From a virus, in the IMG/VR virus record IMGVR_UViG_3300005532_000002: a DNA stretch of 59,884 bases; one strand, written 5' to 3'. The position numbers and the translations under genes are program-made. Position 1 is the first letter of the stretch. Each line of letters begins with the position of its first letter. This document shows positions 3,155 through 23,191 of this stretch, piece by piece. The notes beneath the pieces were generated by a model that saw nothing but the letters and a program-made list of their open reading frames with translations, made no database searches and had not been told where the DNA came from.

Positions 3155-6100
3155 TCAGTGGAGAGCGGCCGCTCCCGAGGCCGCCTGTGGCCCGAGAAGC
3201 TGCGCCCGCTTGGCCGCGAGCGCGGCGCGGACAATGTCGGGATAGCGCATCATCACCAGGCTGCGCGCCGTCTCGCGGGCGCCGCGGATGGCGCTCGTCA
3301 GCATGTCGTGCTGCACGCCGGCCGGGAGCATCGCGAAGCCGGGCATACGCACGATCGCATCGACCCGCATCTTCGCCATGCGGCCGGCGGTGCGGGAAAA
3401 GAGGTCATATTGCTCGTCGGACAGCGCGACGCCGCGGATCTTGCGCGGCAGTTGCGCGGGAAAGACGCCGAGCCGCAGCAGCGCCTGGTTTGCCGGATCG
3501 GTGTTGATGCGGCTCTCATAGAGCGCCGTCACCTCGGGAACCAGCGCCTGCCGGTTCGGGATCGGCTGGCCCCAGATATCGTAGCGCGGCGGCAGGGTCT
3601 CCGAGACGAACGGGATCTTGGCCTTGATCGCGTCGAGCACGCTGCGCGTCTGCCGCATATAGGGATCGAGCGTGCGCGCGGTCTGCGACAGGCCGACCGA
3701 GAACGGCACGAAGGACGAAAAGAAGCCCTTGGCCCAACTCTCGCCGTGCTGCGTCGGCTCCTCGATCGCGCCGAGCAGCTCGGACGGCCCGCGCAGAAAG
3801 CTCTCGTCGAGGATGTTGCGCGCGACCGCGTGCACCGCCATCGCCGCGGTGTTGGCGAGGTCGCCCTTTGCGGCGTAGCCGGCGACGTCCCACAGATCGG
3901 CGGCGATGCCGAGCCCGATGCCGAGCACGCCGAGCCGATGGATCTGATAGTATATGTCGCCGATGCGCACCGAATAGGGCTGCCAGCCGGTCAGATACTT
4001 GACCGAGGCCTCGCGCGGGTCGGAAGGCGGCGAGCCGGTCAACAGCCCCTCGGCCGCGAGACTGCCGCCCAAGAGCATCAACGCCGAGCCGGCGATCATG
4101 CGCCCGGCCGCGAGATCCTGCGCCGCGCCGCCGTTGCGGCCCAGCAGATCGTCGCGGATGCGCGGCGACAACAGCCCGACCGGGGTGCGCTCGACAAGGG
4201 CGCTGTCCATGATGTTGGCGGTGATCGTCACGAACGGATCGACGAAGCGCAACGGGCGCAAGGTGCCGAGCGGCAGCGTGCGGCCGCCCGGCAGCGGCAC
4301 GTCGGGCAGGGCGACGCCGGCGTCGACCAGCGAGGCGAAGCGCTGGCGCAGGCTGCCGTAGGGCGCCTTCTGCATCATCGCGTCCTCGCCGGCCTCGGCG
4401 ATCGCCCGCCGCATCATGTCTTCGGTCGGGTCGACCGTCAGCGCGCGGATGCGGGCGGCGAGATCGTCGCCGGCGCGCCCTTCCTCGGCGGCGGTCCGGT
4501 ACGCCTGCGCCGCGATGCTGCGGGTGTAGCCGGCGGTGCGCGACAGCGCATGGATGGCATTGATCAGCCGCCCGGGCGATTCGAGGACCGTGCCGGCAAT
4601 GCCCGGGATGACGCGGGTGCGGAACGGCTTCGCCGCCATCTCCTCGCCCGGCAGAAGCTGCGTCTCGTTCGATTTGAACGCCCGCCAGGCAGCTTTCCAG
4701 CCGTCGCGCGCATAGCCGCGCATGAAGCCGTAGAGCCCGGCCGGCACTTCGCCGAAGCGCACGCGGTCGGCCGCCGCATCGCCCAAGAGGCCGCGCAGCT
4801 CGCCGACGATCGCCGCAGCGCCGCGCTCGGCCGTGCCCTTCCACAGGCTGAACAGCGCGTTGGCGACGGCATAGGTGCCGTGCGTCGCCGGGCCCGAGAT
4901 CAGCGCGTTGACGAAGAAGCTCTGCAGCCAATCGAACAGGCCGGTCTTGTCGCTGTCGGCGACGAATTTCGAGACCTGCGCCGGGGTGTCGAGCTCGAGG
5001 CCGAGCTGCGCCTCCCGGCGCATCTGGAACAAGGTCCGCCCGGTCGCGGTCTCGAGGAACTGCTCAAGCGGCTCGTCGCGCGCGCCCTTGAACGCGCGGA
5101 ACGCCCTGAGCGCCCGCCCGGCCTCGGCGGTGATCCCGGCCACCTGTCCCTGGATCATACGATGCCGCGCCTTCGCCTCGGCATAGCGCAGCACGTCTTC
5201 CTCGCTGCCGAAGGCGGCGCGGGCCATCGCGTCGCGCACCGCTGTCGCCGATTGGATCAAGAGTTTGCGCGCGGCCACGACCTGCTCGGCGTTGAAGGCC
5301 TCGCCGATCCGGCGCCGGTTCAGCTTCGCCGCGTCCATGCCGAGCGCGTCGGCGAGAGCGAGCACCTGCGCGTCCGAGACGACGCCGCGGCGCTCGGCGA
5401 CGAACGCGTCGTTCTCGTCGGCCGCGTCGCGGATCGCCTCGTTGACCGACTCGGGCGTGCCGAGCAGATCGAGCCGGATGTTGCCGGCCTTGTCTACGAA
5501 CTCGCTGCGTCCCCCAATGGTCCCTTTGGCATCGGGGAAGAAGTCGTTTGGTCCGTCTGGGGTCCCCGCGCGATCTGTGATCGCGCGGGGCTGGGGCGGC
5601 GGCTCTTCTGCCGTTGCGCCGCCGCGGCGAGCCCCAGCGCCGCCTCCGCCTGGTCGAGCGCCTTCTTGTATAGGAGCCTCACCGGCTGCGGCAGGTCCGG
5701 ATCGCCCAGCGCCGCCAGCGCCCGCTCGCGGCCTTCCAAGAGCTGCTCCTCGTCGATCGGCATTCTCGATGTCCTCAAGGCTCTGCGGCGTGCCGTATTC
5801 GAGTTCCGGGCGCCACTCGCGACCGTGCTCCTCGGCCCAATGCTGCGCCGCCCGATCGGCCTCGGCAAGCGCGCTCTCGTGCCGGATGGCGAGCCGCTCG
5901 GCCATCGTCTCGGCCGCTTCCAGGCCGACCCTGTCGGCGATCGCGTCGAAGAACTGTTCGCGCGAGAGGCCGCGCGGATCGACGCCGCGCTCCTGGGCGA
6001 GGCGGTCGATCTCCTCGTTCTGGGCCAGCGCCCGCTCGTATTCGGCGGCGGCGGCGCGGTCGTGCTCGGAATAGCGCGGGCGCTGTTTCAGGTCCTCTTC

Positions 6101-9100
6101 GATCGCATCGAGCAGCGATTGGATGTCCGGGCGCTCGGCGTATTCGGGCAGGTAGCCTTCTTCCCACGCCCGGAGCGCCGCCTCGTCGAGCGGCAGGCCG
6201 TTGCGGTTGACGAGCCCGATGCGGCCCCTGGCGCCGCCGATAATCGCGCGCACGTCGCCGCCTTCGTCGCGCACGCCGCCCTGCTGTTTCAGCCACGCGA
6301 CGAGGCGCAGCGGCTGGCGCGGCACGCGCTCGTAGGGCGTTATCTCCGGGGATCGGCGAGCTGCTGTTTCAGATGCGCGATGGCCTTGCGGCGCAACCTC
6401 GCCTCCGCCCGGTAGGAGCGCTCCTGCTCCTTCACGTGCGCCCGCAGTTCCGGCGACAGGTTCGGGCGCAGGCCCATGACGATCAGATGGTTCACCCGGC
6501 GGCGCGCCTCCGCCAACTCCTTCTCCTGGTGCGCCAATTCCTCGTGCGGCGATCTCATCCTTTACCTCCGGCGCGGTGCGCTCTTCGGTCTCGGCGCGCA
6601 CCTGCTCGGCGACCTGCGCCGCATGCGTCGGCAACGTGCGCGCGGCCGCGGCCTCGTGCGTGTCGGCCAAAGTGCGCGGCGGCTCTTCCTCGCGTGCGAT
6701 TATAGTCCGTCCCGGCTCGTGCGACAGCATGCGGTCGAACACGCCGCGGATGTCGTCGGTGATCGGCCGGCCGAGCTGCCTGGCGCTCTGATAGATCGCC
6801 GTGAGCCATTGACGGAACTGCGCGAATACTCTGGCAAGCGCTTGGCTGGGGGCGCGGCCCTCCCTCATGTATTGCTCGAAGCCGCGGGCGAAGCGCTCAT
6901 GCATGCGCGTGGTGATGTAGCCGTCCGGCTTTGTGCCGAGCCACTTGCGCACCGTCTCGGCATCGTCCTTGAGCGATTGCGGGGCGAGCGGGTGCGCGGC
7001 GTCGGCGACGAGGTTTTCGAGCCATGCATGTCCGGTCTCGTGAATGAAGGTCGAAGCGTCGGCATGCTCAAGGAGGGTGATGGTGGCGCGGGCCTGCTTC
7101 GTCGCGAGCCGGATTTTGCCGCGTTGGGCTTGCTCGAGCTCGTCTTCCGGTCCTATATTTGAGTTGCTGCTTTGGCTCCCTGGGTCGAAGGGAGACTCGC
7201 CTGACGGCGAGGAGACATCTGGGCCCGGTTGTCTCTGAAGCGGTGCGCTGCTCTGGCTCCCTGGGGAATTAAAGGGAGAACCGCCCTCCAGCGGCGAGGC
7301 GCCTGGACCCGGACGCCTCCAGAGCAGTTCTTGATTGCGGAAGTAGCTCGGGCGATACAGCCCCGCCGTGGTGACGGTCCAATGAGAGCCGTCCGCTGAC
7401 GGACGCAGCTCGACGACAGCAATCCGCACCCGCCCGTTTGGCTTCGCCAACAGTAGCCGGCCATCGCGTGCCTGATATATTTCGGCAAAGCCATTGGCGA
7501 CATCTGCGACGAGTTCGGCGGCATCTCTGTATCCGGCGGTCCGGATCTGGGTGCCGTGGCGCGCTTCGATGTGCCGCTCGCCATAGGCATCATTGCCTTC
7601 CGGCAGCCGGATCGGTGCCGCATCGCGGCCTACCGCAGCGGCTATATCCGGAGTGATCTCGCCCAGGGTATCGGAGCCGTCGGCGCGGGCGACGAAACGC
7701 TCGCCGCCGCGCTCGACATAGCGCGCCTCACCCTCGCCGATGGGTATTGGCTCCGGGCCGGGCACGCCCTGGGCATACTCCATCGCCCGTTTTGAGGCCC
7801 CGCGGCCGGCGACGATGCGCGGCGCATCGCGGGCATAGAGATCTTCCGGCGTGCCGAGCCGGCCGGCAAAGCGCGCGGCGCGCGTCTCGTAATAGGCGGC
7901 GACGAGTTGTCCGGCGGCGGTGGCCTCGTCCTGCGGGCGTCCGGCGGCGACGAGTTGCCGCGCCACGTCGCTGGCGATGCCGCCGGGCGGTAGCGGCTTC
8001 TTCTCTTGCAGAGCCGGCTTGCCGCCTTCCGGTTTTGGCTCGGCCGTTTGCGCCTCCGGCGGCGCGACGATCATCGGCGGCTCGGGGTGTTCCAGCGGCA
8101 GCTCGGCCTGCGTTTGCCCGGAAATCGCTTCCGGAGGCGCAGGGGGCGCGATTGCTGGTTCGGGCTGTTGGACGGCGGCCGCGGTTGCCTCGGCTGTCGG
8201 CGCCGCGGCGGTGGGGCTGGACGGCGCGATTTCCGGCCACGGCTGCGGCATCCGCGTCGCGGCCTCGCGGTAGGCAGCCGAGACATCGACCGCCAGATCG
8301 CGCATCCGGTAATCGGTCTGCATCAGCGCTTGGCGCACGCGCTGCATGTCCGGGGTGTCGCGGCTCGTCGCCGCGGCGATCGCCTCCTCGCGCGTCTCGG
8401 CGAGCGGCGCGCGCTGCTTTTCGAGATCGTCGATGCGCGCCTGGTAGATCTTCGTGCGGCGCGGATTGGTGCCTTCCAAGCGCTGCCGCTCGCGGGCGAT
8501 CTGCCGATCAAGGTCGGCGATCTCGGCGGTGTGCGGCGCGTTCGCCTCGGCATCGCGGCGCCGCACCTCGGCGAGATCGCCGAGCCAGCGCCGGAAGGTC
8601 TCTTTGCGCGCGGCAAGCGCGTCGTACTCCCTGAACGTGTCGGGCGCGATCTGGCGGGCGATAGTGTGAATGTCGGGTTCGGGCTCGGTTTCGCGCGCGC
8701 CGACATTGGGCTCTTCCGAGATGGTCTTGTCCGGTTCGGTCCCGGCCGGCGGCTGCTCCTCGGCGGTGGATTTCGTCGCGTCGGCGATCGCTGCGGCGTG
8801 CGCCTCTGCTGGTTCTCCTGTGGCCGGGGGCGGCTTTTCCTCTGCCGCTGTGCCATCCCATCCGTGTTCACCCTTGCCGATGACGCCGAGATCGCGCGCC
8901 GCACCGATCTCGCGTGGGCTGAGGGCGTGCGGCAGGTGCGGCGCCTCGGGCAGCAGCGCTTCCGGCAACGCCGCGATGTCGCGCGCCAGGGTCGGCGGCG
9001 CGCCGGCTTCGAGCGCGGTCTGTTCGGCCGCGCCTTGGGCGCCGCGGAAAGCGCCCTGGATCGCGCGGTTGACGACATCGATCGCCGTCGCCGCCGGTCG

Positions 9101-9469
9101 GATCAACGCCTCGTTGAACGAGCGGACGAGGCTCGCCTGGCCGCTCCGATAGTCGTTGAAGATGCCGGTCTTCTTGAGCCATGCCTCGCTGTCCGGCGAC
9201 AGGCCGAGCGGTTCCGAGCCCCATCCCTGCCCGTAGCCTTGCCCGAAGGCGGAGAGCACGCGCCCGGCGGCGCTGACGCCGGTCTGGAAATAATGATCGA
9301 GCGCGCCGCCTGCGCGCGCCCACAGCGAATCGCTCGGGGCGTTGGCGTGCGCGAGCAGGTCGTCGAGGCTCTTGAACGGCGGCGAGCTTGCGCCTGTGGA
9401 GGGCGGCGCGTTCTGCGGCCCAGCCTTGGCGAGCAGGTCGTCGAGGCTCCGGAAGGGTGCGTCGGGCAT
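3155..9469 (-). CDS. Giant (2104 aa) polyvalent internal/ejected virion protein
   Basis: Single ORF. HExxH motif FIHETGHAW, ERHIEARHG motif, hydrophobic C-terminal third. Sits after the gp16-like gene in T7-like gene order. Confidence 0.8.
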   Translation of the reverse strand: MPDAPFRSLDDLLAKAGPQNAPPSTGASSPPFKSLDDLLAHANAPSDSLWARAGGALDHYFQTGVSAAGRVLSAFGQGYGQGWGSEPLGLSPDSEAWLKKTGIFNDYRSGQASLVRSFNEALIRPAATAIDVVNRAIQGAFRGAQGAAEQTALEAGAPPTLARDIAALPEALLPEAPHLPHALSPREIGAARDLGVIGKGEHGWDGTAAEEKPPPATGEPAEAHAAAIADATKSTAEEQPPAGTEPDKTISEEPNVGARETEPEPDIHTIARQIAPDTFREYDALAARKETFRRWLGDLAEVRRRDAEANAPHTAEIADLDRQIARERQRLEGTNPRRTKIYQARIDDLEKQRAPLAETREEAIAAATSRDTPDMQRVRQALMQTDYRMRDLAVDVSAAYREAATRMPQPWPEIAPSSPTAAAPTAEATAAAVQQPEPAIAPPAPPEAISGQTQAELPLEHPEPPMIVAPPEAQTAEPKPEGGKPALQEKKPLPPGGIASDVARQLVAAGRPQDEATAAGQLVAAYYETRAARFAGRLGTPEDLYARDAPRIVAGRGASKRAMEYAQGVPGPEPIPIGEGEARYVERGGERFVARADGSDTLGEITPDIAAAVGRDAAPIRLPEGNDAYGERHIEARHGTQIRTAGYRDAAELVADVANGFAEIYQARDGRLLLAKPNGRVRIAVVELRPSADGSHWTVTTAGLYRPSYFRNQELLWRRPGPGASPLEGGSPFNSPGSQSSAPLQRQPGPDVSSPSGESPFDPGSQSSNSNIGPEDELEQAQRGKIRLATKQARATITLLEHADASTFIHETGHAWLENLVADAAHPLAPQSLKDDAETVRKWLGTKPDGYITTRMHERFARGFEQYMREGRAPSQALARVFAQFRQWLTAIYQSARQLGRPITDDIRGVFDRMLSHEPGRTIIAREEEPPRTLADTHEAAAARTLPTHAAQVAEQVRAETEERTAPEVKDEIAARGIGAPGEGVGGGAPPGEPSDRHGPAPEPVAGTAGAREGAGALLPGGGEVAPQGHRASETAARRSPEITPYERVPRQPLRLVAWLKQQGGVRDEGGDVRAIIGGARGRIGLVNRNGLPLDEAALRAWEEGYLPEYAERPDIQSLLDAIEEDLKQRPRYSEHDRAAAAEYERALAQNEEIDRLAQERGVDPRGLSREQFFDAIADRVGLEAAETMAERLAIRHESALAEADRAAQHWAEEHGREWRPELEYGTPQSLEDIENADRRGAALGRPRAGAGGAGRSGPAAAGEAPIQEGARPGGGGAGARRGGATAEEPPPQPRAITDRAGTPDGPNDFFPDAKGTIGGRSEFVDKAGNIRLDLLGTPESVNEAIRDAADENDAFVAERRGVVSDAQVLALADALGMDAAKLNRRRIGEAFNAEQVVAARKLLIQSATAVRDAMARAAFGSEEDVLRYAEAKARHRMIQGQVAGITAEAGRALRAFRAFKGARDEPLEQFLETATGRTLFQMRREAQLGLELDTPAQVSKFVADSDKTGLFDWLQSFFVNALISGPATHGTYAVANALFSLWKGTAERGAAAIVGELRGLLGDAAADRVRFGEVPAGLYGFMRGYARDGWKAAWRAFKSNETQLLPGEEMAAKPFRTRVIPGIAGTVLESPGRLINAIHALSRTAGYTRSIAAQAYRTAAEEGRAGDDLAARIRALTVDPTEDMMRRAIAEAGEDAMMQKAPYGSLRQRFASLVDAGVALPDVPLPGGRTLPLGTLRPLRFVDPFVTITANIMDSALVERTPVGLLSPRIRDDLLGRNGGAAQDLAAGRMIAGSALMLLGGSLAAEGLLTGSPPSDPREASVKYLTGWQPYSVRIGDIYYQIHRLGVLGIGLGIAADLWDVAGYAAKGDLANTAAMAVHAVARNILDESFLRGPSELLGAIEEPTQHGESWAKGFFSSFVPFSVGLSQTARTLDPYMRQTRSVLDAIKAKIPFVSETLPPRYDIWGQPIPNRQALVPEVTALYESRINTDPANQALLRLGVFPAQLPRKIRGVALSDEQYDLFSRTAGRMAKMRVDAIVRMPGFAMLPAGVQHDMLTSAIRGARETARSLVMMRYPDIVRAALAAKRAQLLGPQAASGAAALH

Positions 9470-12400
9470 CAGCGGACGCTCTCGGCGCCGATCCGGTTGA
9501 GCTGCTGTTCGGGTGTCTCACCGCGCGAATAGAACGTGCCAGGCTGCTCGGGTGGGGCGGTCGCCGATGCCGGTGCGGGCGGTTTCGTCGCCGGGGCAGC
9601 GATCCAACCGTGCGCGAGAGCAATCGCCTGCGCCTGATCGCGCGTGATGTGGCCGGCCTGGAACGCGGCGGCGAGCGCCTGCGGGGTGTCGATATCGGCC
9701 GCCGAAGCGGCCCCGCCGGGCGCGTTCTCGTTCAACAGATCCGATGTCCACTGCGACATCGGCCGTTTGAACGCGGCGATCGACTTGCCGATATAGTTCG
9801 GGCTATTGGGGTCGAAAATGTCGGACGGGGTTTTGCCCGCCGCTCGTGCCTTCTCGATCGCCGGCAAGGCCTGCGCCATGAATTTGAGGTACAGTTCCTC
9901 GCCCCGCGGATCCTTGATGTGCAGCCCGTCGTCGGCGCCCGAGATCTCGCCGTGCGCGGTGCGGAAGAACTGGCGCTCCATCTCGGTCCATGCCGCGGCC
10001 TCGGGCGTGCCGCGTCCGGCGATGATCTTCGACAGCGCATCGACGCCCTTCAAGGTCAGATCGCCGCCCGGGCCGGCGTGGCGCATGATCTCGGCTTGGT
10101 CGGTGATGCGCGTCGGATCGCCCGGCGGTGCCGTCACGCGCTTGTAGAGCGACCAGAAAGCCGGGCCATAGGTCTGCGTCGCCTCGGCGACGTCGCTGCC
10201 GCTCTGCTTGACGGCAAAGCGCTGGTACATGTCGAGGAGCGCCCGCCGCGTATCCGGCAGCAATGCCGGGTCGCTGCCGATCTGCGCCGCCGTCAGGGTC
10301 GGGTGGCCGCTCGACAGGTCGGCGATGATTTCGTTCGCGCGCGCCTGGCTGGCGTCGTGGAGCTGCTGTTCGTGCAGTTGCCGCGCGTGTTCCTGGTCGG
10401 CCCAGTGCGCGGCGTAGTTGACGCGGGCGAGATCAATCGCCTTGGCGAGGACCTGCGGATCCTGGATCTTGCGCGTCAGTTCGGCGATCTTGTCGGAGAG
10501 GCTCGGAACCTGCTCGTCGCTCGGCCGCTGTGCCGGCGCATTCGCGGCCGCCGGGATTCCCGTCGCACGCGTCTCGGCGCCGGGCTTGCCTGCCAAAGCC
10601 GCCGCCGGCGTGATGCTCGCCTCGCCGTTGTCGCCGACATGCAGGTATACGGTGCCGTACCTGTGGATCATGTCTTCGACCTGAGCCTTGAAGGTCGGCC
10701 ACTGGTTCCCGGCGATCGCGACGCAACCCTTGGTGATCAGCTCGTCGCTCGATCCGGCGTGAAGCTCGATCCCGACGCGGGCGCGCCCCAAGCGCGGGTC
10801 GTAGATGAAGTTGTTGTTGACCCCGATGGCGCCGTGCGCGCGCCCCCACGGGCCGACCGCGCCGGGCGTGATCGGATAGTTTCCCGGCGGGATCGGCGCG
10901 GCGCCCTTCTCGCCGCCGGAGCCCCATTGGTAGTGCCGCCCTTCGACGTCGATCGTGCCGCCGATGTGCGCCGGCGGCTGCCTCGGTGTCGTCGCGGCCT
11001 GCCGGCCAAGCGCGGCGATGGCCTGCTCGCGCAGCTTGTCGACTTCGGCGGGATGAATTCCGTCCTTTTGCCAACGGATGTTGGGTTCGAAGAAGACGGC
11101 GCCGTGCGCCTCGGCGAGCTGCCGCAGTTGCGCATTAACGGCGTCGCGGTTCGGCACGCCCGGGCCGACGCCGGGAACGACCGCGCGAGCGCCGGCCTTT
11201 TGCAGAAGGTCGAGTTCCTGCCCGACGATCGCCACCTGCGCCGGGTTGTTGCTGGTCCCGGGCGACAGGAAGATGGTCCGGCCCTTGAACTGCTCGGGCG
11301 GCGTCGCCTGTAGGCGGGCGAGCACCATCGCCGGCGTGTCGCCGATGACCGCGGTCGCGCCCCGCTGCTGCGCGAGCGCGCGCCCGCGCTGGCCTTCCTT
11401 GCCGCCGACGCCGTGGCGGATCTGCTGCACCGCGATCGAGTCGCCGAAAGCGAGATCGAATTTCGGCGGGGCGGCCGGGGCGGCGGCCGGCTCTGTCCCG
11501 GCACCGATGCCGCCGCCTCCTGAGCCTGTCGAAGGGCCGAGGGCGGCGCGCTCGTAGCGCTCGCGCCACAGATCGACGAAAGTCGACGCCGGCGCGTTCG
11601 GATCGCCGCCGTTGGCGCGGATGTTTTCGGGCAGCACGACCTTGCCGGCCGGCGTGCCCGGCGGCGCGTTCAGCAGCGCGACCGCACCCGGGACGCCCTG
11701 CTGATGCGCGAGATAGACTTCGGCGTTGGTCGGTTCGCGGCCAAGCGCCGCGCCGAGTTCGCTCTTGGTCTGCGCCAGCCAGCGGAGGCCGTTGTCGATC
11801 TGCGTGCCGCGATCGGCCATGTCGCCGCCGCCGGCCTTCCTCCACTCGTCCGGCCCGAGCTGGAAGATATTGCCGCGGGGCCCGAGGTTGCGGCCGAGGT
11901 CGCTCTCGAGCCGCGCCGTGCCGACGGCGAGCGAGGGGTCGATATTGAGGCGCTGCGCCCGGTCGGCGATCGTCTGCGCGACCGGGCCGCTCGGAGCGCC
12001 CGCGGGCGCTGAGCCTGTCGAAGGGCCGAACACCGCCCGCGTTGCCTCGGCATCGACGAGCTTTTCGTGGATACCGCGCTCCAATGCGTCGCGCTGCGCC
12101 GGGTCGATGTGCGGGCCGTATTGCTGTAGCAGTGTGTTGGCGGTCGCCCAATCCTCGCGCGCCATCGCGCCCTGGATCGCCGCGGTCGCACCGAGGCCGA
12201 CCGGGTCGTGCCCGACATAGCGCTTGTCGCCGAGATCGGACAGCCGTTGCATCTGGCGACCGATCGTCTGGAACTGGCTGTCGAGATAACCCGGATCGTT
12301 ATACTGGTTCGACACGCTCCGCAGGGCCGAGACGATCGCGGCGGTGCTGGTGTCGAGCGCGTTCGTGCGCACCGCTTCCGCCGCGGCGCGGCCGATTGCG

Positions 12401-12816
12401 CGCGAGAAGGCGACGCGCTGGTAATTCGTGCTGCGCGCGAAAAAGTTCTGCGCCTGCTCGTTGCCGAGACTGGCGCCGCTCTGCCGCCACAACTCGTCGA
12501 GCTGCTGCATGACCTGCGGGCGCGCCCGCAGAAAATCCGCGCCGGTCTTCGCGAACAGGCCGTTCTCGCCGTAGAGCAGATCGTTGGCCTTCTCGCTCCA
12601 ATCTACGGCGGCGTTCTCGGCGCTCGTCTCGTTGTGAAGCTGCTGGATCTGGATGGCGGCTTCCGCCATCGCATTGCCGCCGGCCTGGATCTCGCCGCCG
12701 GCGCGCTGCATCGCCGCGCCGACGACGTCGAGGCGCGGCATGTCGGGCCGATAGAAAACGGGCGCCGGGGCGGCCGGGCGAACATCGGGCGCGCCCTGAT
12801 AGACGACGCGGGCCAT
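9469..12816 (-). CDS. Internal virion protein with lytic transglycosylase, SGNH/GDSL hydrolase and YkuD/DUF2778 (Tlde1-like) domains
   Basis: ARLESDLG..YLAHQQG (SLT-like); FGDSIA..GTSNN..DGIHP (SGNH blocks); GNYPI..ELHAGSSDELITKGCVAI (H/C motif). Confidence 0.8.
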   Translation of the reverse strand: MARVVYQGAPDVRPAAPAPVFYRPDMPRLDVVGAAMQRAGGEIQAGGNAMAEAAIQIQQLHNETSAENAAVDWSEKANDLLYGENGLFAKTGADFLRARPQVMQQLDELWRQSGASLGNEQAQNFFARSTNYQRVAFSRAIGRAAAEAVRTNALDTSTAAIVSALRSVSNQYNDPGYLDSQFQTIGRQMQRLSDLGDKRYVGHDPVGLGATAAIQGAMAREDWATANTLLQQYGPHIDPAQRDALERGIHEKLVDAEATRAVFGPSTGSAPAGAPSGPVAQTIADRAQRLNIDPSLAVGTARLESDLGRNLGPRGNIFQLGPDEWRKAGGGDMADRGTQIDNGLRWLAQTKSELGAALGREPTNAEVYLAHQQGVPGAVALLNAPPGTPAGKVVLPENIRANGGDPNAPASTFVDLWRERYERAALGPSTGSGGGGIGAGTEPAAAPAAPPKFDLAFGDSIAVQQIRHGVGGKEGQRGRALAQQRGATAVIGDTPAMVLARLQATPPEQFKGRTIFLSPGTSNNPAQVAIVGQELDLLQKAGARAVVPGVGPGVPNRDAVNAQLRQLAEAHGAVFFEPNIRWQKDGIHPAEVDKLREQAIAALGRQAATTPRQPPAHIGGTIDVEGRHYQWGSGGEKGAAPIPPGNYPITPGAVGPWGRAHGAIGVNNNFIYDPRLGRARVGIELHAGSSDELITKGCVAIAGNQWPTFKAQVEDMIHRYGTVYLHVGDNGEASITPAAALAGKPGAETRATGIPAAANAPAQRPSDEQVPSLSDKIAELTRKIQDPQVLAKAIDLARVNYAAHWADQEHARQLHEQQLHDASQARANEIIADLSSGHPTLTAAQIGSDPALLPDTRRALLDMYQRFAVKQSGSDVAEATQTYGPAFWSLYKRVTAPPGDPTRITDQAEIMRHAGPGGDLTLKGVDALSKIIAGRGTPEAAAWTEMERQFFRTAHGEISGADDGLHIKDPRGEELYLKFMAQALPAIEKARAAGKTPSDIFDPNSPNYIGKSIAAFKRPMSQWTSDLLNENAPGGAASAADIDTPQALAAAFQAGHITRDQAQAIALAHGWIAAPATKPPAPASATAPPEQPGTFYSRGETPEQQLNRIGAESVR

Positions 12817-13424
12817 CAGGGGCCTCCGCTGAAATCCTGATTACCGACGTTTGGGCTGCCGGTCGGCATGAACGGACTGAAAAAGCCGCCGCCGGCCGGG
12901 GCGGCGCCAACGGTGGTCATCCAACTATATTTGGCGCCCACGTTGCTCAACCCGCCCATCAGCGAGCCCATCGCGCCCCACATGCCAGCCTGTTCGTCGG
13001 CGCTCGCCTCTGCGCTATAGAGCCCGGCTTGCGCCTGCTGGTTCGTGCCGGCAACCTCGTACTCGTAGCCCTGCACCTCGCCCTGTTGCATCACGGTCGC
13101 GGCGTTGGTGCGGCCGACGAGACGCTGGGTTTCCTGCGTCTGCTTGGCGCTGCCGGTGTTCGGGTCGATGCCGGAAGCACCCTGTTCGGCGGCGATCGCG
13201 GCGACGGCCTGCCGGTTTTGCAGGCTGGCGTTCTCGGCCTGCGCCTCGCCCGCCTCCTGTGCCGCGGTGGCCGATTGCTGCGCGGCGATGGCATTGTTGT
13301 TGGCGACTTGCGCCTGATAACGTGCCATCGCGGCTTCGGTTTGCCCTTGTTCAAAGGCCCCGATGGCCGAGATGCCGGTGCCGATGACGCCGAAGATCGG
13401 CGCCGCAGCGGCCAAGAGGCCCAT
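12816..13424 (-). CDS. Internal virion protein (Q/A-rich, hydrophobic N-terminus)
   Basis: Internal ATG (aa 43) of ORF 12816..13550. Its start lies 2 nt after the upstream stop. Confidence 0.6.
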   Translation of the reverse strand: MGLLAAAAPIFGVIGTGISAIGAFEQGQTEAAMARYQAQVANNNAIAAQQSATAAQEAGEAQAENASLQNRQAVAAIAAEQGASGIDPNTGSAKQTQETQRLVGRTNAATVMQQGEVQGYEYEVAGTNQQAQAGLYSAEASADEQAGMWGAMGSLMGGLSNVGAKYSWMTTVGAAPAGGGFFSPFMPTGSPNVGNQDFSGGP

Positions 13425-13425
13425 T

Positions 13426-13890
13426 TCAGGCCGCCTCCCACACGATGGCGCAAAGGCGCTCGCCGTGGCGGCCGAGCGCCTGCGGTTCGCCGATGCGGGC
13501 GCCCAACAGGCGCCAGAAGCGCAAGACGCGTTCGGCATCCTCCGGTCCACACGCGGAGACCGAACGGTAATGTGCGAGGGCGCAGTCGATCTGGGTTTGC
13601 ATGAAGCGCAGGAAGGCGAGCGGGCGGCGCTCGACGGCGGCCGTCGTCAGCAGCCACGCCCGCGCCTCGGCGCCCATCAGGCTCGCGACGAGGCCGCCCA
13701 GAGCCGCGATCTCGCCGTCGAGGAACAGCGCGCGGCAGTAGAGCGAGCAGCGGATCATATGCAGGACGGCCCGGCGCGGCCGCAGCACGATGGCGGCGAT
13801 CTCGCCCAACTCCTCGCGGCGCAGGCACGGCAGGATCAGCGCGGCGTGGCGCGGCCGGCCGGGGACGACTTCAATACCCTTTCGCGCCAT
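13426..13890 (-). CDS. Hypothetical virion-module protein
   Basis: ORF 13426..13968. ATG at 13890 has SD GAAGGG. Codons upstream of it have low GC3. Confidence 0.55.
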   Translation of the reverse strand: MARKGIEVVPGRPRHAALILPCLRREELGEIAAIVLRPRRAVLHMIRCSLYCRALFLDGEIAALGGLVASLMGAEARAWLLTTAAVERRPLAFLRFMQTQIDCALAHYRSVSACGPEDAERVLRFWRLLGARIGEPQALGRHGERLCAIVWEAA

Positions 13891-16741: not shown

Positions 16742-17614
16742 TTAATACACGCCGCCATCGGGAAATGCGAACCCGGCCCAACCTTGAAACAGGATGCCGG
16801 GCCCGGCGTCATTCCATCCCGGTCCCCACCAGCCGCCGCCCGCGCCGCGCGCAGCGAGCCAGTCCGGCACGTGATCGGCCGTCTTCGGAAAGCCGGCGTC
16901 GTTGGCCGCGGCGGCGCGCGCGACGGCGAGCGCGTCCTTGGCGACCGCGATCTGCCGGTCGCGCAGGGTGAGGGCGAGCTTCTTGTCTTCGGCCGCGACC
17001 ATCGCGAGGCGCGCGGCCAGGGCCGCCACCATCGCCTCGCGGAACAGCGGGTCCCATTCCTCGATTTCGCGCGCGAGCTTCGTGTAGACGAGCAGCGCGT
17101 TCGCCATGTTGGTCAGCACCACGCGGCGCGCGAGGAGGCCCTGACCTTCGATGCCCGAGAGATCCGGCATCGATGCCCAATCGACCTCGCCGGCGACGAT
17201 CGGGTATTGCTCGCTCGAGGAGACAAGAAAGCGCGCCGGCCGGGTCGTGATCGCGGTGTTGGTCGGCGTGAGGCCGGTCATCTGCGGCCCCGGCGCCGTC
17301 GCATTGGGCGGCGTCTGGTACGGCATCCAGATCGCCTGAACACCGTCGTTCGGCCACGCATAGGCGTATTGCCAGGGCGGCTCGACGATGGTGCTCGCGC
17401 TCGGCGTTTGCCCGCTGGCGTCGCCGAGTAGAAGCAGGGGAGCCATCTTCCGCGCGAACCCCCAATGCGCCGCGCGCAGCAGGCCGCGCAGGGTTTGCCC
17501 ATACCAGCGGCGCGCCGCTTCCGAGACGCGCGTGCCGTCGCTGAGCGAGCCGATCGGCTCGACGGAGAGAGCGTCAAGGCTCTGGTTGACGATGTCGGCC
17601 GGAAGTTGCCGCAT
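16742..17614 (-). CDS. Tail tubular protein A / adaptor-like (T7 gp11-like), paralog 1
   Basis: DIVNQSLDALSVEPIGSLSDG..WGFAR..PPWQYAYAWP pattern parallels the T7 gp11 N-terminus (recalled from memory). Confidence 0.65.
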   Translation of the reverse strand: MRQLPADIVNQSLDALSVEPIGSLSDGTRVSEAARRWYGQTLRGLLRAAHWGFARKMAPLLLLGDASGQTPSASTIVEPPWQYAYAWPNDGVQAIWMPYQTPPNATAPGPQMTGLTPTNTAITTRPARFLVSSSEQYPIVAGEVDWASMPDLSGIEGQGLLARRVVLTNMANALLVYTKLAREIEEWDPLFREAMVAALAARLAMVAAEDKKLALTLRDRQIAVAKDALAVARAAAANDAGFPKTADHVPDWLAARGAGGGWWGPGWNDAGPGILFQGWAGFAFPDGGVY

Positions 17615-18149
17615 ATGATTTCTCTAAATACTCCAATGCTTTGCGTAGCCCTTCGATGCTGTCGCCCAGCATGCCAATTCCTGTGTTGCATTTGCTGCAA
17701 AGCAAGCCCCGCACAACACCCGTTTTGTGATCGTGGTCAAGACAGGCCGCGGTCTCGCCCTTACGGGCACAAAGAATGATGTAATCGCCGCATATCGGGC
17801 ATTTGTTCCCCTGCCGAGAAAGGAGATCTCGCGCATCCTCCAGTTCTAAGCTATACGCCCTTTGGAAAAGAACGTTCTTCTCACGTACCCTTTGGGCCGG
17901 ACGTCTGCTGGCTTCGCGACTACGCTTTCGCTCTTTATCTTTGTTATTGTGGTAGTATCGTTTTTGGGCGGCTCTGTAGACCTCCGGCTTTTTGGCGCGC
18001 GACACGCGGGTATCACGTGTAGAGCAGGCTCGACAATGAGGTTTCCGGCCCCACATCCCATTGGGGTGTTTCTGGAAGTTATCCAGGGATTTCCACTCGC
18101 CGCAGCCCGTGCAAATTCGTCCGGCCGGTGGTACACTCTGTTCGGTCAT
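17574..18149 (-). CDS. Endonuclease VII-family (HNH-like) homing-type endonuclease
   Basis: CPICG..CLDHDHKTGVVRGLLCSKCNTGIG motif, SD GGAGG, lower GC, overlaps the next gene by 41 nt. Confidence 0.8.
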   Translation of the reverse strand: MTEQSVPPAGRICTGCGEWKSLDNFQKHPNGMWGRKPHCRACSTRDTRVSRAKKPEVYRAAQKRYYHNNKDKERKRSREASRRPAQRVREKNVLFQRAYSLELEDARDLLSRQGNKCPICGDYIILCARKGETAACLDHDHKTGVVRGLLCSKCNTGIGMLGDSIEGLRKALEYLEKSYAATSGRHRQPEP

Positions 18150-18217
18150 TCGGGCGCCTCCAACGCTCGGATGGCAAGGGAGCTGCCGCCGATCCCAACG
18201 GTGACGGCTCCCGCATT

Positions 18218-18838
18218 TTACCCGGTTTTCGAAGAAGACGCCACTATTGCTGCTCCTTCGGAGAGATTTTCCTTTGCCGATACGGCTGACATTTGCCCCT
18301 GCAGAAGTGCCTTCGACAATTTGGATGCTAGAATTTTTATCAAAGCTTCAGTGTAGTCATTGTTCCAGGTTCCGGGGTCTGTGATCTGCCCGGTATAAAC
18401 CGCGATTGCCGAGGACGTGTTGGTCAAGATTACCTGTTGGGCCGGCGACAGCGTATCATCATTACAGAGGCGCCATACGCTCGGCTGCGGATCGAGATCG
18501 AACATCAGCCCTGGCGGCGCTACGATCGCGCCAAGCTTCAGGCAGTCGGAGGGGTAGGCGTATTCGTAGAGCCAGCCGGGCGGCGGATAGGCCGTCGTCC
18601 ACGGCTGGTTCGGGTTGAAGCCGCCGGGCGGCGGCGGCCCCTTGAGCAGGGTCAGGGCGAGCGTGCGGCGGGCGAAGGGCCAGTCGCGCGCGCGCAACAG
18701 CTCGTCCCGGGTCTGGCCGTAGGTCGCCAGCGCCGCGCGGGCGGCGGGGGAGCCCTCGTACAGATCGGCGATCAGGCGCTGTTGCCCGGCTTCGATGAGC
18801 GCGACATTGACGATATCTTCCGGGGCCGCATAAGGCAT
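18218..18838 (-). CDS. gp11-like tail tubular protein A, paralog 2
   Basis: DIVNVALIEAG..WPFARR..PPGWLYEYAYPSDCL..VILTN..AVYT shared with paralogs 1 and 3. Confidence 0.6.
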   Translation of the reverse strand: MPYAAPEDIVNVALIEAGQQRLIADLYEGSPAARAALATYGQTRDELLRARDWPFARRTLALTLLKGPPPPGGFNPNQPWTTAYPPPGWLYEYAYPSDCLKLGAIVAPPGLMFDLDPQPSVWRLCNDDTLSPAQQVILTNTSSAIAVYTGQITDPGTWNNDYTEALIKILASKLSKALLQGQMSAVSAKENLSEGAAIVASSSKTG

Positions 18839-18841
18839 GGA

Positions 18842-19411
18842 TCAGATCTCGTCCACCAGCTCGGCGAGCTGTGCGAAGGCTTGCGACTCTTCCAGGATCT
18901 CCTTGGCGAAGTCCGGCCGCCCGGCGAGCGCCATCGCCAGCGGATTGGCGAGCCGCCGCGCCACCGCCTCGATGAAAGCCGAGTCCCAAAGGTTTTCCTG
19001 CCCGACGCCCGGCATGCCGCTGGTATAGACGGCATAGGCGCTCGTGAGGTTGCAAACGACGACTTTTGCGGTTAGCCCGGCATCGAAGGCGACCTGGGCG
19101 CGCACCGGTTGCGGATCGTTCGCGACGACATTGGCCGGTGCGGGGCGCACTTGCCGGAGCCTCAGGCAGTCCGCCGGATAGAGATATTCCGCGCTCCACG
19201 GCGGCGGGATCGTGCCGCCCACGGCCGGGGCAAGCGCCGCGGTGCGCCGCGCGAAAGCGGGATCGAGCTGGCGCAGCAGCAGGTTGACCGCCGGCGCGTA
19301 CAACACGCCCGCGGCGTTGCCGGCCGGACTGCCGTCGTTGAGACCGGTGATCGTGGTCTGCGCCGCGATCAGTTCCAGGGCTTCGTTGACAACCGAAACA
19401 GATGTGACCAT
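18842..19411 (-). CDS. gp11-like tail tubular protein A, paralog 3
   Basis: VVNEALELIAAQ..FARR..PPWSAEYLYPADCL..CNLTSAYAVYT. Confidence 0.6.
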   Translation of the reverse strand: MVTSVSVVNEALELIAAQTTITGLNDGSPAGNAAGVLYAPAVNLLLRQLDPAFARRTAALAPAVGGTIPPPWSAEYLYPADCLRLRQVRPAPANVVANDPQPVRAQVAFDAGLTAKVVVCNLTSAYAVYTSGMPGVGQENLWDSAFIEAVARRLANPLAMALAGRPDFAKEILEESQAFAQLAELVDEI

Positions 19412-22631: not shown

Positions 22632-23191
22632 AGCAAAAGCCCCTGTCCCGTGACCGGATCGAGCGGTCTGTCTTTCTTGCTGCAATTGCAGCTCCTGCAG
22701 GCGCACACGCTGTTCTCAATGGTATTCGACCCGCCCCTTGCAAGCGGGATAATATGATCGTGCGTCGGGCGCCGAGTCTTGGTCCAAGGTTTCCCGCACC
22801 AATAACATCGGGGCGACCGAGCAATGAGGGCTCGCCAATCCGCGGCCGTAAATTTACCAAGAGCAGCCCGCTTGAGGGCGCGGCGGCGCTGCGATTGCGC
22901 CTTAATTCTATCAGGATTGTCCTGGACCCATTCGCGTTTATATTCCCGAACGCGCTCAGGGAAAGTCGCCCGATAAACACGCGCGTAATTACGTTTTGGC
23001 TCTGGGTTGGCCGCATATTTGATGCGGCTTTGCTCGTTTATCTGTTCCCTGTTGGCTGCGTACCAGGCGCGCTTTCGTTCTTTTACAAGTTCGCGGTGGC
23101 GGGCATTCCAGCCCCTCATATATGCCCGATGATATGCGCGCCTTCGCTCTTGCGCGGTCGGCTTTTGGGATTCACAATCATCTTTGGTCAT
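22628..23191 (-). CDS. HNH homing-type endonuclease
   Basis: HDHIIPLARGGSNTIENSVCACRSCNCSK, SD AGGAG 7 nt before the ATG at 23191, lower GC. Confidence 0.8.
   Translation of the reverse strand: MTKDDCESQKPTAQERRRAYHRAYMRGWNARHRELVKERKRAWYAANREQINEQSRIKYAANPEPKRNYARVYRATFPERVREYKREWVQDNPDRIKAQSQRRRALKRAALGKFTAADWRALIARSPRCYWCGKPWTKTRRPTHDHIIPLARGGSNTIENSVCACRSCNCSKKDRPLDPVTGQGLLL

What the first reader, a model, noticed from the sequence alone, without database searches (positions are those of the whole stretch)
10627..11463. Virion protein carries SGNH esterase and Tlde1-like L,D-transpeptidase-fold domains alongside its transglycosylase
Downstream of the SLT-like domain the same 1115-aa protein has GDS / GTSNN / DGIHP blocks (SGNH hydrolase, possibly a peptidoglycan de-O-acetylase). 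It then has GNYPI..ELHAGSSDELITKGCVAI, which matches the His/Cys signature of YkuD/DUF2778 (Tlde1) domains, best known as type VI secretion cell-wall toxins. Three different peptidoglycan-active chemistries in one ejected protein is unusual.
Basis: partly seen in the sequence, partly recalled or inferred. Interest (0 to 1): 0.7.

Follow-up and report, generated by a model that had tools for sequence, protein, structure and literature searches.

The report
Phage ejection protein with three wall-cutting domains
A protein that a T7-like phage probably injects into its host combines a sugar-chain cutter with two further likely cell-wall enzymes, an esterase and a cysteine peptidase distantly related to bacterial L,D-transpeptidases, and the peptidase belongs to a large, unnamed, phage-only family.

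Summary
All six motifs lie in one 1115-aa ORF (window 9469-12816, minus strand). That ORF sits in the gp15 position of a T7-like module: tail tube, gp14-like, this ORF, 2104-aa gp16-like, fibre.

**Cysteine peptidase domain (aa 615-737).** This is a distinct, unannotated family of 275 clusters.
- G645, D673, H686, G697 and C698 are invariant in 150 sequences. C698 is the protein's only cysteine.
- Two independent family profiles hit only YkuD-fold enzymes in the PDB: Csd6 (E 2e-4 and 7e-4), Tlde1a and Pgp2.
- R680/H686/T695/G697/C698 align to Tlde1a R115/H121/S128/G130/C131.
- The TKGCVAI motif matches L,D-carboxypeptidases (Csd6 TKGCIAI), not transpeptidases (SHGCVR).
- It fails the Pfam Tlde1 cut-off (14 vs 30.1 bits).
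- A pLDDT-94 model gives no significant Foldseek hit.
- Carriers are phage tape-measure, lytic-tail and ejection proteins. None is a type VI secretion protein.

**SGNH-like domain (aa 452-600).** S460, G492, N523, D585 and H588 are invariant in 15 homologs. Profile and fold support is only sub-threshold.

**SLT-like domain (aa 283-423).** Support is transitive, through Rhizobium phage RHEph01.

The three-domain combination is unique among 150 representatives. All enzyme activities are inferred. I rate it a new variant of virion-associated peptidoglycan hydrolases.

The parts
9469..12816 (-). Whole 1115-aa ORF in the gp15 (internal virion / ejection protein) position of a T7-like structural module
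   Evidence: ORF list. The identical product is called on 3 public contigs. Neighbours are the tail tubular B protein (phrog_376), a gp14-like protein (phrog_418; T7_gp14 weak), a 2104-aa protein (phrog_6651, internal virion protein) and a tail fibre.
12007..12816 (-). N-terminal domain (aa 1-270) shared with large phage virion 'endolysin'-labelled families
   Evidence: phrog_10475 matches aa 33-268 at E 6.7e-9, and phrog_1044 matches aa 43-177 at E 6.6e-8.
11548..11970 (-). SLT-like lytic transglycosylase domain (aa 283-423); proposed catalytic Glu304 in the 'LES' motif (codon 11905-11907)
   Evidence: The region is 33% identical (E 5e-19) to the N-terminus of Rhizobium phage RHEph01 gp48. 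That N-terminus scores 34.7 bits on Pfam SLT, above the 21.3-bit cut-off. The region also matches internal virion proteins of several phages. There is no direct Pfam SLT hit.
11017..11463 (-). SGNH/GDSL-like esterase domain (aa 452-600). Block I is S460 (codon 11437-11439), block II G492 (11341-11343), block III N523 (11248-11250), block V D585 (11062-11064) and H588 (11053-11055).
   Evidence: All five residues are invariant in 15 homologs. Pfam Lipase_GDSL_2 scores E 1.8e-4 over profile positions 1-171 of 178, below the cut-off. The best PDB profile hit is the OatA SGNH domain at E 0.083. Foldseek on a low-confidence model is led by TesA.
10606..10974 (-). YkuD-superfamily (Tlde1/Csd6-like) Cys-His peptidase domain (aa 615-737). 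Key residues are the IPPGNY motif (aa 642-647), D673 (codon 10798-10800), R680 (10777-10779), H686 (10759-10761), T695 (10732-10734), G697 (10726-10728) and C698 (10723-10725).
   Evidence: There are 275 homologous clusters. Invariant residues are shown. PDB profile hits are Csd6, Tlde1a and Pgp2. The AF2 model has pLDDT 94. Foldseek is not significant.
9472..10524 (-). C-terminal mostly helical region (aa 765-1115) of unknown role, probably the scaffold or channel part of the ejection protein
   Evidence: aa 852-1013 are 31.5% identical to a hypothetical protein of an uncultured podovirus-sized genome (H4). There is no family hit.
12816..13550 (-). Upstream gp14-like internal virion protein. 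Its stop overlaps the start of the target ORF.
   Evidence: phrog_418 at E 4e-12. PF24072 T7_gp14 (weak) on the public gene call.
3155..9469 (-). Downstream 2104-aa gp16-position internal virion protein. Its start overlaps the stop of the target ORF.
   Evidence: phrog_6651 internal virion protein at E 5e-23, and phrog_9880 at E 2e-53.

Best explanation
**What it is.** The ORF is the middle internal-core (gp15-position) protein of a new T7-like podovirus. It is built as beads on Ala/Pro/Gly-rich linkers, in this order:
1. a virion-incorporation domain
2. an SLT-type lytic transglycosylase
3. a minimal SGNH-type serine esterase
4. a Cys-His peptidase of the YkuD (L,D-transpeptidase, MEROPS C82-like) superfamily
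5. a helical C-terminal part

**How it most likely works.** By analogy with T7, it is ejected through the tail into the periplasm, where the three enzyme modules open the sacculus locally for the DNA-ejection conduit.
- The transglycosylase cuts glycan strands.
- The esterase most plausibly removes C6-O-acetyl groups from MurNAc, which otherwise block transglycosylases.
- The Cys-His domain most plausibly hydrolyses a bond at the L-centre of meso-DAP. Candidates are L,D-carboxypeptidase action, L,D-endopeptidase action on 3-3 cross-links, or DpaA-like cleavage of protein-peptidoglycan tethers. Making cross-links is less likely.

**Shown here:** domain boundaries, conserved catalytic residues, family relationships and phage context.

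**Inferred:** virion location and ejection, all substrates, and hydrolysis versus transfer.
For: **Context.** The gene order follows T7: gp11/12-like, gp14-like, target ORF, gp16-like, fibre. Portal, primase and helicase genes lie in the same window.

**YkuD-like domain.**
- It has 275 clusters, with G645, D673, H686, G697 and C698 invariant.
- C698 is the sole Cys of the protein, and of the domain in 139 of 150 members.
- Two non-overlapping family profiles hit essentially only YkuD-fold enzymes among 177,635 PDB sequences. These are Csd6 at 2.3e-4 and 6.9e-4, Tlde1a at 0.036 and 0.017, and Pgp2; one further hit, 7o21, is unnamed.
- The alignment places R680/H686/T695/G697/C698 on Tlde1a R115/H121/S128/G130/C131 (numbering from PMC9638812). 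It places H686/C698 on Csd6 His-160/Cys-176 (PMC4599014).
- Pfam hits among members are Tlde1_dom (15 of 60), DUF5675 (13 of 60) and YkuD (10 of 60).
- hhalign to E. coli DpaA is in register over 74 columns.

**Hydrolase rather than transpeptidase.** The T-K-G-C-V-A-I motif equals Csd6 TKGCIAI and Pgp2 TRGCIAL. It lacks the His at C-2 and the Arg/Asn at C+2 of LdtB SHGCVRL. Tlde1a H129 is needed mainly for cross-linking (PMC9638812).

**Cell-wall role.** Full-length relatives carry tape-measure, phage-lysozyme, glucosaminidase, Hydrolase_2, VanY, Amidase_2 and SLT domains. IMG/VR carriers are tape-measure, lytic-tail and DNA-ejection proteins.

**SGNH.** The catalytic set is invariant and Lipase_GDSL_2 scores E 1.8e-4. 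Foldseek is led by TesA, GDSL lipases and PatB. The module co-occurs with SLT-like and M15 peptidase domains elsewhere. A C6-O-acetyl group precludes transglycosylase action, and Ape esterases are SGNH enzymes (PMC6174289).

**SLT.**
Against: - The pLDDT-94 model of the Cys-His domain finds no significant structural neighbour. The best PDB hit is LdtMt1 at E 0.26 with TM 0.25-0.35. The best BFVD hit is an unnamed protein at E 0.016.
- The domain is below the gathering cut-off of every Pfam family.
- The His-to-Cys spacing is 12 residues, shorter than the canonical H-x-x14-19-C.
- SGNH support from profiles and structure is sub-threshold. Only 4 of 15 members touch Lipase_GDSL_2. No PDB hit is significant, and Ape1 was not retrieved. 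The only model covering it has pLDDT 47.
- There is no direct Pfam SLT hit.
- No sequence homology to T7 gp15 itself was detected, so ejection rests on gene position.
- The host and its peptidoglycan chemistry (O-acetylation, 3-3 cross-links) are unknown.
Confidence: 0.6

Rival explanations
1. The Cys-His domain acts as a transferase, as canonical L,D-transpeptidases or the toxin Tlde1 do. It might exchange D-amino acids, make 3-3 cross-links, or covalently anchor the ejection conduit (or itself) to meso-DAP of the sacculus, rather than cutting the wall.
For: The domain shares the acyl-enzyme catalytic set with transpeptidases. It also keeps the Tlde1a residues R115 and G130, which are tied to D-amino-acid exchange (PMC9638812). 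YkuD enzymes attach Lpp and outer-membrane proteins to peptidoglycan (established knowledge).
Against: The position equivalent to Tlde1a H129 / Ldt SHGC is variable in the family (E, A, Q or K), and the C+2 Arg/Asn is absent. The motif equals those of the carboxypeptidases Csd6 and Pgp2. The partner domains in relatives are all lytic enzymes.
Confidence: 0.12
2. The SGNH-like module does not act on peptidoglycan. It may be a lipase or lysophospholipase, or a deacetylase of another envelope polymer. It would then help the ejected proteins cross a membrane or the lipopolysaccharide, or modify a polysaccharide.
For: The best structural matches are thioesterase/lysophospholipase TesA and generic GDSL lipases. 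Known phage SGNH esterases are tailspike deacetylases of surface polysaccharides (literature list). Ape1 was not retrieved from the PDB.
Against: The module sits directly after a transglycosylase in an internal, not external, virion protein. Its larger homologs carry SLT/muramidase-like or M15 peptidoglycan-peptidase domains. The best sequence-profile PDB hit, though non-significant, is the peptidoglycan O-acetyltransferase OatA SGNH domain.
Confidence: 0.2
3. One or both extra modules are non-enzymatic: binding or scaffold domains, or a self-processing protease that matures the internal virion protein.
For: No activity has been measured. There is no significant structural match for the Cys-His domain. 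Some phage ejection and tape-measure proteins are proteolytically processed (general knowledge).
Against: Complete catalytic sets are strictly conserved across 150 and 15 divergent sequences. A single invariant Cys in a Cys-free protein is typical of a working nucleophile. Standalone 140-260-aa versions exist with nothing to process.
Confidence: 0.06

Closest known systems
Helicobacter pylori Csd6 and Campylobacter jejuni Pgp2 (L,D-carboxypeptidases with the L,D-transpeptidase fold; PDB 4XZZ, 6XJ6)
   Same: Csd6 is the best PDB profile hit (E 2.3e-4 and 6.9e-4). Both share the upstream P-x-G-x-Y block, the Asp, the catalytic His and a near-identical T-K/R-G-C-I-A-I/L nucleophile motif. Csd6 also has a single catalytic Cys (PMC4599014).
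   Different: The phage domain is a bare ~125-aa module without the dimerisation and NTF2-like domains. Its His-Cys spacing is 12 rather than 16. It sits inside a phage virion protein. No structural superposition could be obtained.
Tlde1a (Salmonella type VI secretion effector; Pfam PF10908 Tlde1_dom; PDB 7UMA)
   Same: It is the second-best PDB hit. R115, H121, S128, G130 and C131 are all matched by conserved residues. The His-Cys spacing is short (10 vs 12). Both are delivered into a target cell's periplasm by a contractile or ejection machine (PMC9638812).
   Different: The phage domain scores 14 bits against the 30.1-bit Pfam cut-off. The H129 equivalent is not conserved. There is no immunity gene and no type VI secretion context. 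Relatives are tape-measure and ejection proteins.
DUF5675 (PF18925), recently described as a 'C82-like' phage lysin domain
   Same: 13 of 60 family members touch this Pfam model (best E 8.1e-5). A 2026 preprint (10.64898/2026.04.11.717860) places a DUF5675 lysin next to C82 peptidases by structure, so YkuD-like domains in phage lytic proteins are starting to be recognised.
   Different: The window's domain does not hit DUF5675 itself. The family here is fused to virion ejection and tape-measure proteins rather than described as an endolysin.
T7 gp16 and related internal virion proteins with an N-terminal SLT domain (e.g. Rhizobium phage RHEph01 gp48); phiKMV gp36-type virion lysozymes
   Same: These are ejected core proteins carrying a peptidoglycan-cleaving domain. 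The gene order is the same, and the SLT domain is 33% identical to RHEph01 gp48.
   Different: Here the lytic domain is in the middle (gp15-position) protein and is followed by two additional enzyme-like modules. None of the phage records searched has either extra module in this position.
O-acetylpeptidoglycan esterase Ape1 and the PatB/OatA SGNH domains
   Same: They share the SGNH block I/II/III/V residues. The functional logic also matches: de-O-acetylation is a prerequisite for transglycosylase action (PMC6174289). OatA-C is the top PDB sequence hit and PatB is in the Foldseek list.
   Different: The similarity is not significant, and Ape1 was not retrieved. The phage module is about 150 aa with an insertion between blocks I and II. 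Its substrate is untested.

Membership tests
SGNH/GDSL hydrolase superfamily | Block I GDS with the Ser nucleophile | tested here: met
   G458-D459-S460 followed by I-A is invariant in 15 of 15 homologs. It aligns to the start of the Lipase_GDSL_2 profile.
SGNH/GDSL hydrolase superfamily | Block II Gly and block III Asn (oxyanion hole) | tested here: met
   G492 and N523 (in G-T-S-N) are invariant in 15 of 15. Block definitions follow PMC6174289.
SGNH/GDSL hydrolase superfamily | Block V D-x-x-H | tested here: met
   D585 and H588 are invariant in 15 of 15.
SGNH/GDSL hydrolase superfamily | Profile score above the curated cut-off | tested here: not met
   Lipase_GDSL_2 scores 22.5 bits (E 1.8e-4) against a 32.9-bit cut-off. 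Only 4 of 15 members hit at E<1.
SGNH/GDSL hydrolase superfamily | Three-layer alpha/beta/alpha fold | tested here: inconclusive
   The only model is single-sequence, with overall pLDDT 47 and 50-86 in the core. Foldseek is led by TesA (E 8.6e-3, prob 1.0), GDSL lipases and PatB, but nothing reaches E <= 1e-3.
O-acetylpeptidoglycan esterase (Ape) | Specific similarity to Ape1, and esterase activity on O-acetyl-MurNAc | tested here: not met
   The family profile did not retrieve Ape1 from the PDB at E <= 10. Activity cannot be tested with these tools.
YkuD / L,D-transpeptidase-fold superfamily (MEROPS C82-like) | Invariant catalytic His and Cys, with Ser/Thr at C-3 and Gly at C-1 | tested here: met
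   H686, G697 and C698 are kept in 150 of 150, and position 695 is S/T in 149 of 150. They are in register with Csd6, Tlde1a, Pgp2, DpaA, LdtB and LdtD.
YkuD / L,D-transpeptidase-fold superfamily (MEROPS C82-like) | Canonical spacing H-(S/G/D)-x14-19-C | tested here: not met
   The sequence is H686-A687-x10-C698. This is shorter than canonical and closer to Tlde1a H121-C131 (PMC4599014, PMC9638812).
YkuD / L,D-transpeptidase-fold superfamily (MEROPS C82-like) | Significant profile similarity to solved members | tested here: met
   Csd6 scores E 2.3e-4 (60-sequence profile) and 6.9e-4 (an independent 46-sequence profile). The remaining hits are Tlde1a and Pgp2, plus 7o21, an unnamed protein whose fold I did not check.
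YkuD / L,D-transpeptidase-fold superfamily (MEROPS C82-like) | Three-dimensional fold superposes on known members | tested here: inconclusive
   The model has pLDDT 94. The top Foldseek PDB hit is LdtMt1 at E 0.26 with TM 0.25-0.35, and there is no significant hit in PDB or BFVD.
L,D-transpeptidases proper (cross-link-forming Ldts) | [ST]-H-G-C-[IVL]-[RN] motif | tested here: not met
   The window has T-K-G-C-V-A. The family has E/A/Q/K at C-2 and A/G/V at C+2. E. coli LdtB has SHGCVRL.
Tlde1 (Pfam PF10908; type VI secretion effector) | Pfam gathering score | tested here: not met
   It scores 13.6-14.0 bits against a 30.1-bit cut-off. 15 of 60 family members hit only weakly, with best E 0.0036.
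Tlde1 (Pfam PF10908; type VI secretion effector) | Type VI secretion context with a cognate immunity gene | tested here: not met
   The gene lies in a phage structural operon. Seventy full-length relatives show phage tape-measure and lysin domains and no PAAR, VgrG or Rhs. The contexts examined are all phage contigs.
Tlde1 (Pfam PF10908; type VI secretion effector) | Active-site residues R115, H121, S128, H129, G130 and C131 | tested here: inconclusive
   Five of the six are matched (R680, H686, T695, G697, C698). The H129 equivalent is K696 and is variable in the family.
SLT (family 1) lytic transglycosylase | Pfam SLT match and catalytic Glu-Ser | tested here: inconclusive
   There is no direct Pfam hit. 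Transitively, the region is 33% identical (E 5e-19) to the RHEph01 gp48 N-terminus, which scores 34.7 bits against a 21.3-bit cut-off. L-E304-S305 aligns with I-E-S.
T7-like internal virion (ejected core) protein gp15 | Gene position between the gp14-like and gp16-like genes, downstream of the tail tube genes | tested here: met
T7-like internal virion (ejected core) protein gp15 | Sequence homology to T7 gp15; presence in virions and ejection into the host | not testable with these tools
   No Pfam, NCBIfam or PDB hit to gp15 was found. Virion proteomics and ejection assays are needed.

The most novel reading that the evidence does not exclude
The Cys-His module defines a previously unrecognised and widespread class of phage virion-delivered L,D-peptidases. 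On this reading phages use the YkuD fold 'in reverse' at entry. They would cut 3-3 (meso-DAP to meso-DAP) cross-links, or the covalent tethers between peptidoglycan and outer-membrane proteins, as DpaA does. In this protein that chemistry is coupled to an esterase that unblocks O-acetylated glycan for the adjacent transglycosylase. The result would be a self-contained three-step wall-opening tool.
Probability: 0.3. Interest if true: 0.75.

Novelty: new variant of a known kind. Interest (0 to 1): 0.6.

Why it matters
Virion-associated peptidoglycan hydrolases are known as glycosidases, amidases and metallo- or CHAP/NlpC-type endopeptidases. A YkuD-fold cysteine peptidase would add a new catalytic class to that list.

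The family is not rare. It has 275 clusters at 50% identity, fused to tape-measure, lytic-tail and ejection proteins of unrelated phages. Yet it is absent from 50,697 GenBank phage records, from PHROGs hits and from Pfam. Current annotation therefore misses it.

It would also give a natural source of enzymes specific for L,D-linkages. These include 3-3 cross-links, which underlie beta-lactam tolerance in mycobacteria and are abundant in Rhizobiales, and outer-membrane tethers.

The fusion of a transglycosylase with an SGNH esterase gives a directly testable idea for how phages cope with O-acetylated peptidoglycan.

Tried and rejected
- **Whole-protein searches.** Pfam, NCBIfam and PDB searches gave nothing useful. 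Domain-wise searches were needed.
- **Word-indexed homolog search.** It found only 2 SGNH relatives, and only 7 YkuD-like relatives even with a profile. The exhaustive representative search was decisive.
- **Single-sequence AF2 of aa 448-745.** The model was poor, with pLDDT 47.
- **Foldseek of the good model.** Searches against PDB and BFVD gave no significant hit.
- **hhalign against single E. coli sequences.** Family profiles against TesA, LdtB, LdtD and DpaA gave low probabilities. The alignments were in register but not decisive.
- **PDB search with the 70 full-length relatives.** It returned only coiled-coil noise from the tape-measure parts.
- **SGNH profiles against the PDB.** The 4-sequence profile hit unrelated proteins. 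The 15-sequence profile put OatA first, but at E 0.083.
- **tblastn and megablast against GenBank phages.** The YkuD-like domain gave no match even at E <= 1. The first 25 kb of the window gave no match.
- **IMG/VR scans.** The first two, with the 60-sequence alignment and with the single protein, failed. A 10-sequence alignment worked.
- **Genome scan.** It found one alphaproteobacterial MAG only, so the host could not be inferred.
- **Type VI secretion toxin reading.** Rejected, because every context is phage.
- **Chance-motif reading.** Rejected on conservation.
Full report
**1. The observation**

The window encodes a 1115-aa ORF on the minus strand at 9469-12816. The finding's coordinates correspond to aa 452-730.

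The ORF is real. An identical product is called on three public contigs. Its start and stop overlap the neighbouring ORFs by one base.

**2. Genomic context**

On the minus strand the genes run in this order:
- tail-tubular-A-like genes (phrog_394)
- tail tubular B (phrog_376, E 9e-163)
- a gp14-like internal virion protein (phrog_418; PF24072 weak)
- the target ORF
- a 2104-aa protein with an internal-virion-protein match (phrog_6651)
- a tail fibre

A T7-type portal, a Toprim primase and an AAA_25 helicase lie further along. This is the T7 gene order gp11-12-14-15-16-17, so the target sits in the gp15 position. Ejection into the host is inferred from that analogy and is not shown.

The phage is new. 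Megablast of the first 25 kb of the window finds no phage record, and the tail tube B protein is at most 38.8% identical to known phages.

**3. Architecture**

Ala/Pro/Gly-rich linkers at aa 424-451, 601-614 and 738-764 separate five parts:
- an N-terminal region shared with large virion 'endolysin'-labelled PHROGs (aa 33-268)
- an SLT-like domain (aa 283-423)
- an SGNH-like domain (aa 452-600)
- a Cys-His domain (aa 615-737)
- a helical C-terminal part

**4. The Cys-His domain**

*Family size and conservation.* Searched alone against 1.84 billion representative proteins, the domain finds 275 clusters at E <= 1e-3, of which 177 are at E <= 1e-10. In an alignment of 150 of them, G645, D673, H686, G697 and C698 are invariant. 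Position 695 is Ser or Thr in 149, and R680 is present in 145. C698 is the only cysteine in the whole 1115-aa protein. The invariant Cys is the only Cys of the domain in 139 of 150 members.

*Profile evidence.* A 60-sequence profile searched against all PDB sequences returns six sequences: Csd6 (4XZZ, E 2.3e-4), two Tlde1a constructs (0.036), two Pgp2 constructs and 7O21. A second profile, built from 46 different family members without the window sequence, returns the same six (Csd6 6.9e-4, Tlde1a 0.017). Csd6, Tlde1a and Pgp2 are all L,D-transpeptidase-fold enzymes.

*Residue register.* The alignments place H686 and C698 on Tlde1a H121 and C131. They place R680, T695 and G697 on R115, S128 and G130, using the numbering of PMC9638812. 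They also place H686 and C698 on Csd6 His-160 and Cys-176, allowing a constant offset of 9 in the deposited sequence (PMC4599014).

*Pfam.* Scanned individually against Pfam, family members touch only Tlde1_dom (15 of 60), DUF5675 (13 of 60) and YkuD (10 of 60), all weakly. The window's own score on Tlde1_dom is 14 bits against a cut-off of 30.1.

*Conclusion and weak point.* The domain is a distant member of the YkuD superfamily. It forms its own family and is not a Tlde1 family member. AlphaFold2 with the 60-sequence alignment gives a confident model (pLDDT 94, pTM 0.87). Foldseek nevertheless finds nothing significant. The top PDB hit is M. tuberculosis LdtMt1 at E 0.26 with TM 0.25-0.35. 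The top viral hit is an unnamed 118-aa protein at E 0.016. I could not superpose the model directly, so fold-level confirmation is still open.

**5. Hydrolase or transpeptidase?**

Cross-linking Ldts carry [ST]-H-G-C-[IVL]-[RN]; E. coli LdtB has SHGCVRL. The phage family has T/S-x-G-C-[VFI]-[AGV]-[IV]. The C-2 position is variable and there is no Arg or Asn at C+2.

The window's TKGCVAI is almost the same as Csd6 TKGCIAI and Pgp2 TRGCIAL, both L,D-carboxypeptidases. It also shares the upstream P-x-G-x-Y block with Csd6, Tlde1a and the Lpp-releasing amidase DpaA. In Tlde1a, H129 at the C-2 position matters mainly for cross-linking (PMC9638812).

I therefore infer hydrolysis at the L-centre of meso-DAP. 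Whether the enzyme is a carboxypeptidase, a 3-3 endopeptidase or a tether amidase cannot be decided here.

**6. Where the family lives**

- Seventy full-length relatives carry PhageMin_Tail (5), Phage_lysozyme2 (3), Phage_lysozyme (2) and Glucosaminidase (2). Hydrolase_2, VanY, Amidase_2, DPBB_1, TMP_3 and SLT each occur once. None has a type VI secretion marker.
- Ten IMG/VR loci carry the domain on tape-measure, 'lytic tail' and 'DNA ejection' proteins. They share nothing else with this phage.
- Standalone 159-aa and 261-aa versions lie just after tail-fibre genes on phage contigs.
- The domain is therefore a mobile, phage-borne module of proteins that reach the periplasm at infection.
- tblastn finds no copy in 50,697 GenBank phage records even at E <= 1. 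PHROGs gave no hit over this region. The genome scan found one alphaproteobacterial MAG.
- The literature held no paper linking YkuD or transpeptidase domains to tape-measure or internal virion proteins. A 2026 preprint does describe the related DUF5675 as a 'C82-like' lysin domain.

**7. The SGNH-like domain**

*Homologs and conservation.* Homologs are few. They are two metagenomic proteins at 45-47% identity, a 1196-aa protein of Synechococcus phage S-H38 and eleven short proteins found with a profile. Across all 15, the defining residues of blocks I, II, III and V are invariant: S460, G492, N523, D585 and H588 (block definitions from PMC6174289).

*Profile and fold support.*
- Lipase_GDSL_2 matches at E 1.8e-4 over profile positions 1-171 of 178, below the cut-off. 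Only 4 of 15 members touch it.
- The best PDB sequence hit of the family profile is the SGNH domain of the peptidoglycan O-acetyltransferase OatA, at a non-significant E 0.083.
- The single-sequence model is poor. Its Foldseek list is led by TesA (E 8.6e-3), CrmE10, GDSL lipases and PatB, interleaved with unrelated folds at similar E-values.

I regard the SGNH assignment as probable.

*Link to the cell wall.* This link is circumstantial. The module follows a transglycosylase here. It is joined to a weak SLT/muramidase-like region in P0001, and to Peptidase_M15_4 in the cyanophage protein. A C6-O-acetyl group on MurNAc precludes transglycosylase action, and Gram-negative bacteria use an SGNH esterase (Ape) to remove it (PMC6174289). 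That gives a coherent but untested role.

**8. The SLT-like domain**

There is no direct Pfam hit. The region is 33% identical (E 5e-19) to the N-terminus of RHEph01 gp48. That N-terminus exceeds the Pfam SLT cut-off, and its I-E-S aligns with L-E304-S305.

**9. Is the combination unusual?**

Among the 150 best representatives of the Cys-His family, only the window's own protein has the SGNH-like module. Only two others have this SLT type. The three-enzyme arrangement appears unique so far.

**10. Verdict**

- The domain is YkuD-superfamily. It is closest to Csd6 by profile E-value and by the nucleophile motif, with Tlde1a the second-best hit. It is not a Tlde1 family member.
- It belongs to a phage family, not a type VI secretion family.
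- It is more likely a hydrolase than a transpeptidase.
- Structural confirmation is lacking.
- The SGNH substrate is unknown.

I rate it a new variant of virion-associated peptidoglycan hydrolases, with interest 0.6.

Noticed in passing
window 16742-19411 (- strand): Three separate tail-tubular-A-like ORFs (phrog_394) lie in tandem at 18842-19411, 18218-18838 and 16742-17614. An endonuclease VII/HNH ORF (17574-18149) sits between the second and third. T7-like phages normally have one such gene.
   Followed up: no
window 3155-9469 (- strand); motifs at 7028-7042 and 7553-7582: The 2104-aa gp16-position protein has no Pfam hit. It contains an HExxH motif (HETGH, aa 810) inside a strong phrog_9880 match (aa 781-916), and a GERHIEARHG motif at aa 630. 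These may be further enzyme modules in a 'polyvalent' ejection protein.
   Followed up: partly
window 10723-10725 (codon of C698): C698 is the only cysteine in the entire 1115-aa protein. In 139 of 150 family members the invariant Cys is the only Cys of the domain.
   Followed up: yes
window 20571-22706 (- strand): A 711-aa ORF between the tail-tube genes and the portal region has no PHROG or Pfam hit. An HNH endonuclease ORF abuts it at 22628-23335.
   Followed up: no
window 54208-55782 (+ strand): A C-5 cytosine DNA methylase (PF00145, E 2e-30) lies on the opposite strand to the phage structural and replication genes.
   Followed up: no
L001 1282-4872 (Synechococcus phage S-H38, MW117965.1): A 1196-aa hypothetical protein of a cyanomyovirus carries the same rare SGNH-like module (36% identity) together with a Peptidase_M15_4 domain. 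It is the only GenBank phage with this module.
   Followed up: partly
proteins P0019, P0062, P0085, P0108, P0146: Some relatives contain two matched stretches of the YkuD-like domain, suggesting tandem duplication within one virion protein.
   Followed up: no
L010 7929-10223: In one IMG/VR contig the YkuD-like domain sits at the N-terminus of a protein whose remainder matches phrog_26400 'DNA ejection protein' (E 2.5e-48). The module has therefore been recruited independently by a different ejection-protein lineage.
   Followed up: partly
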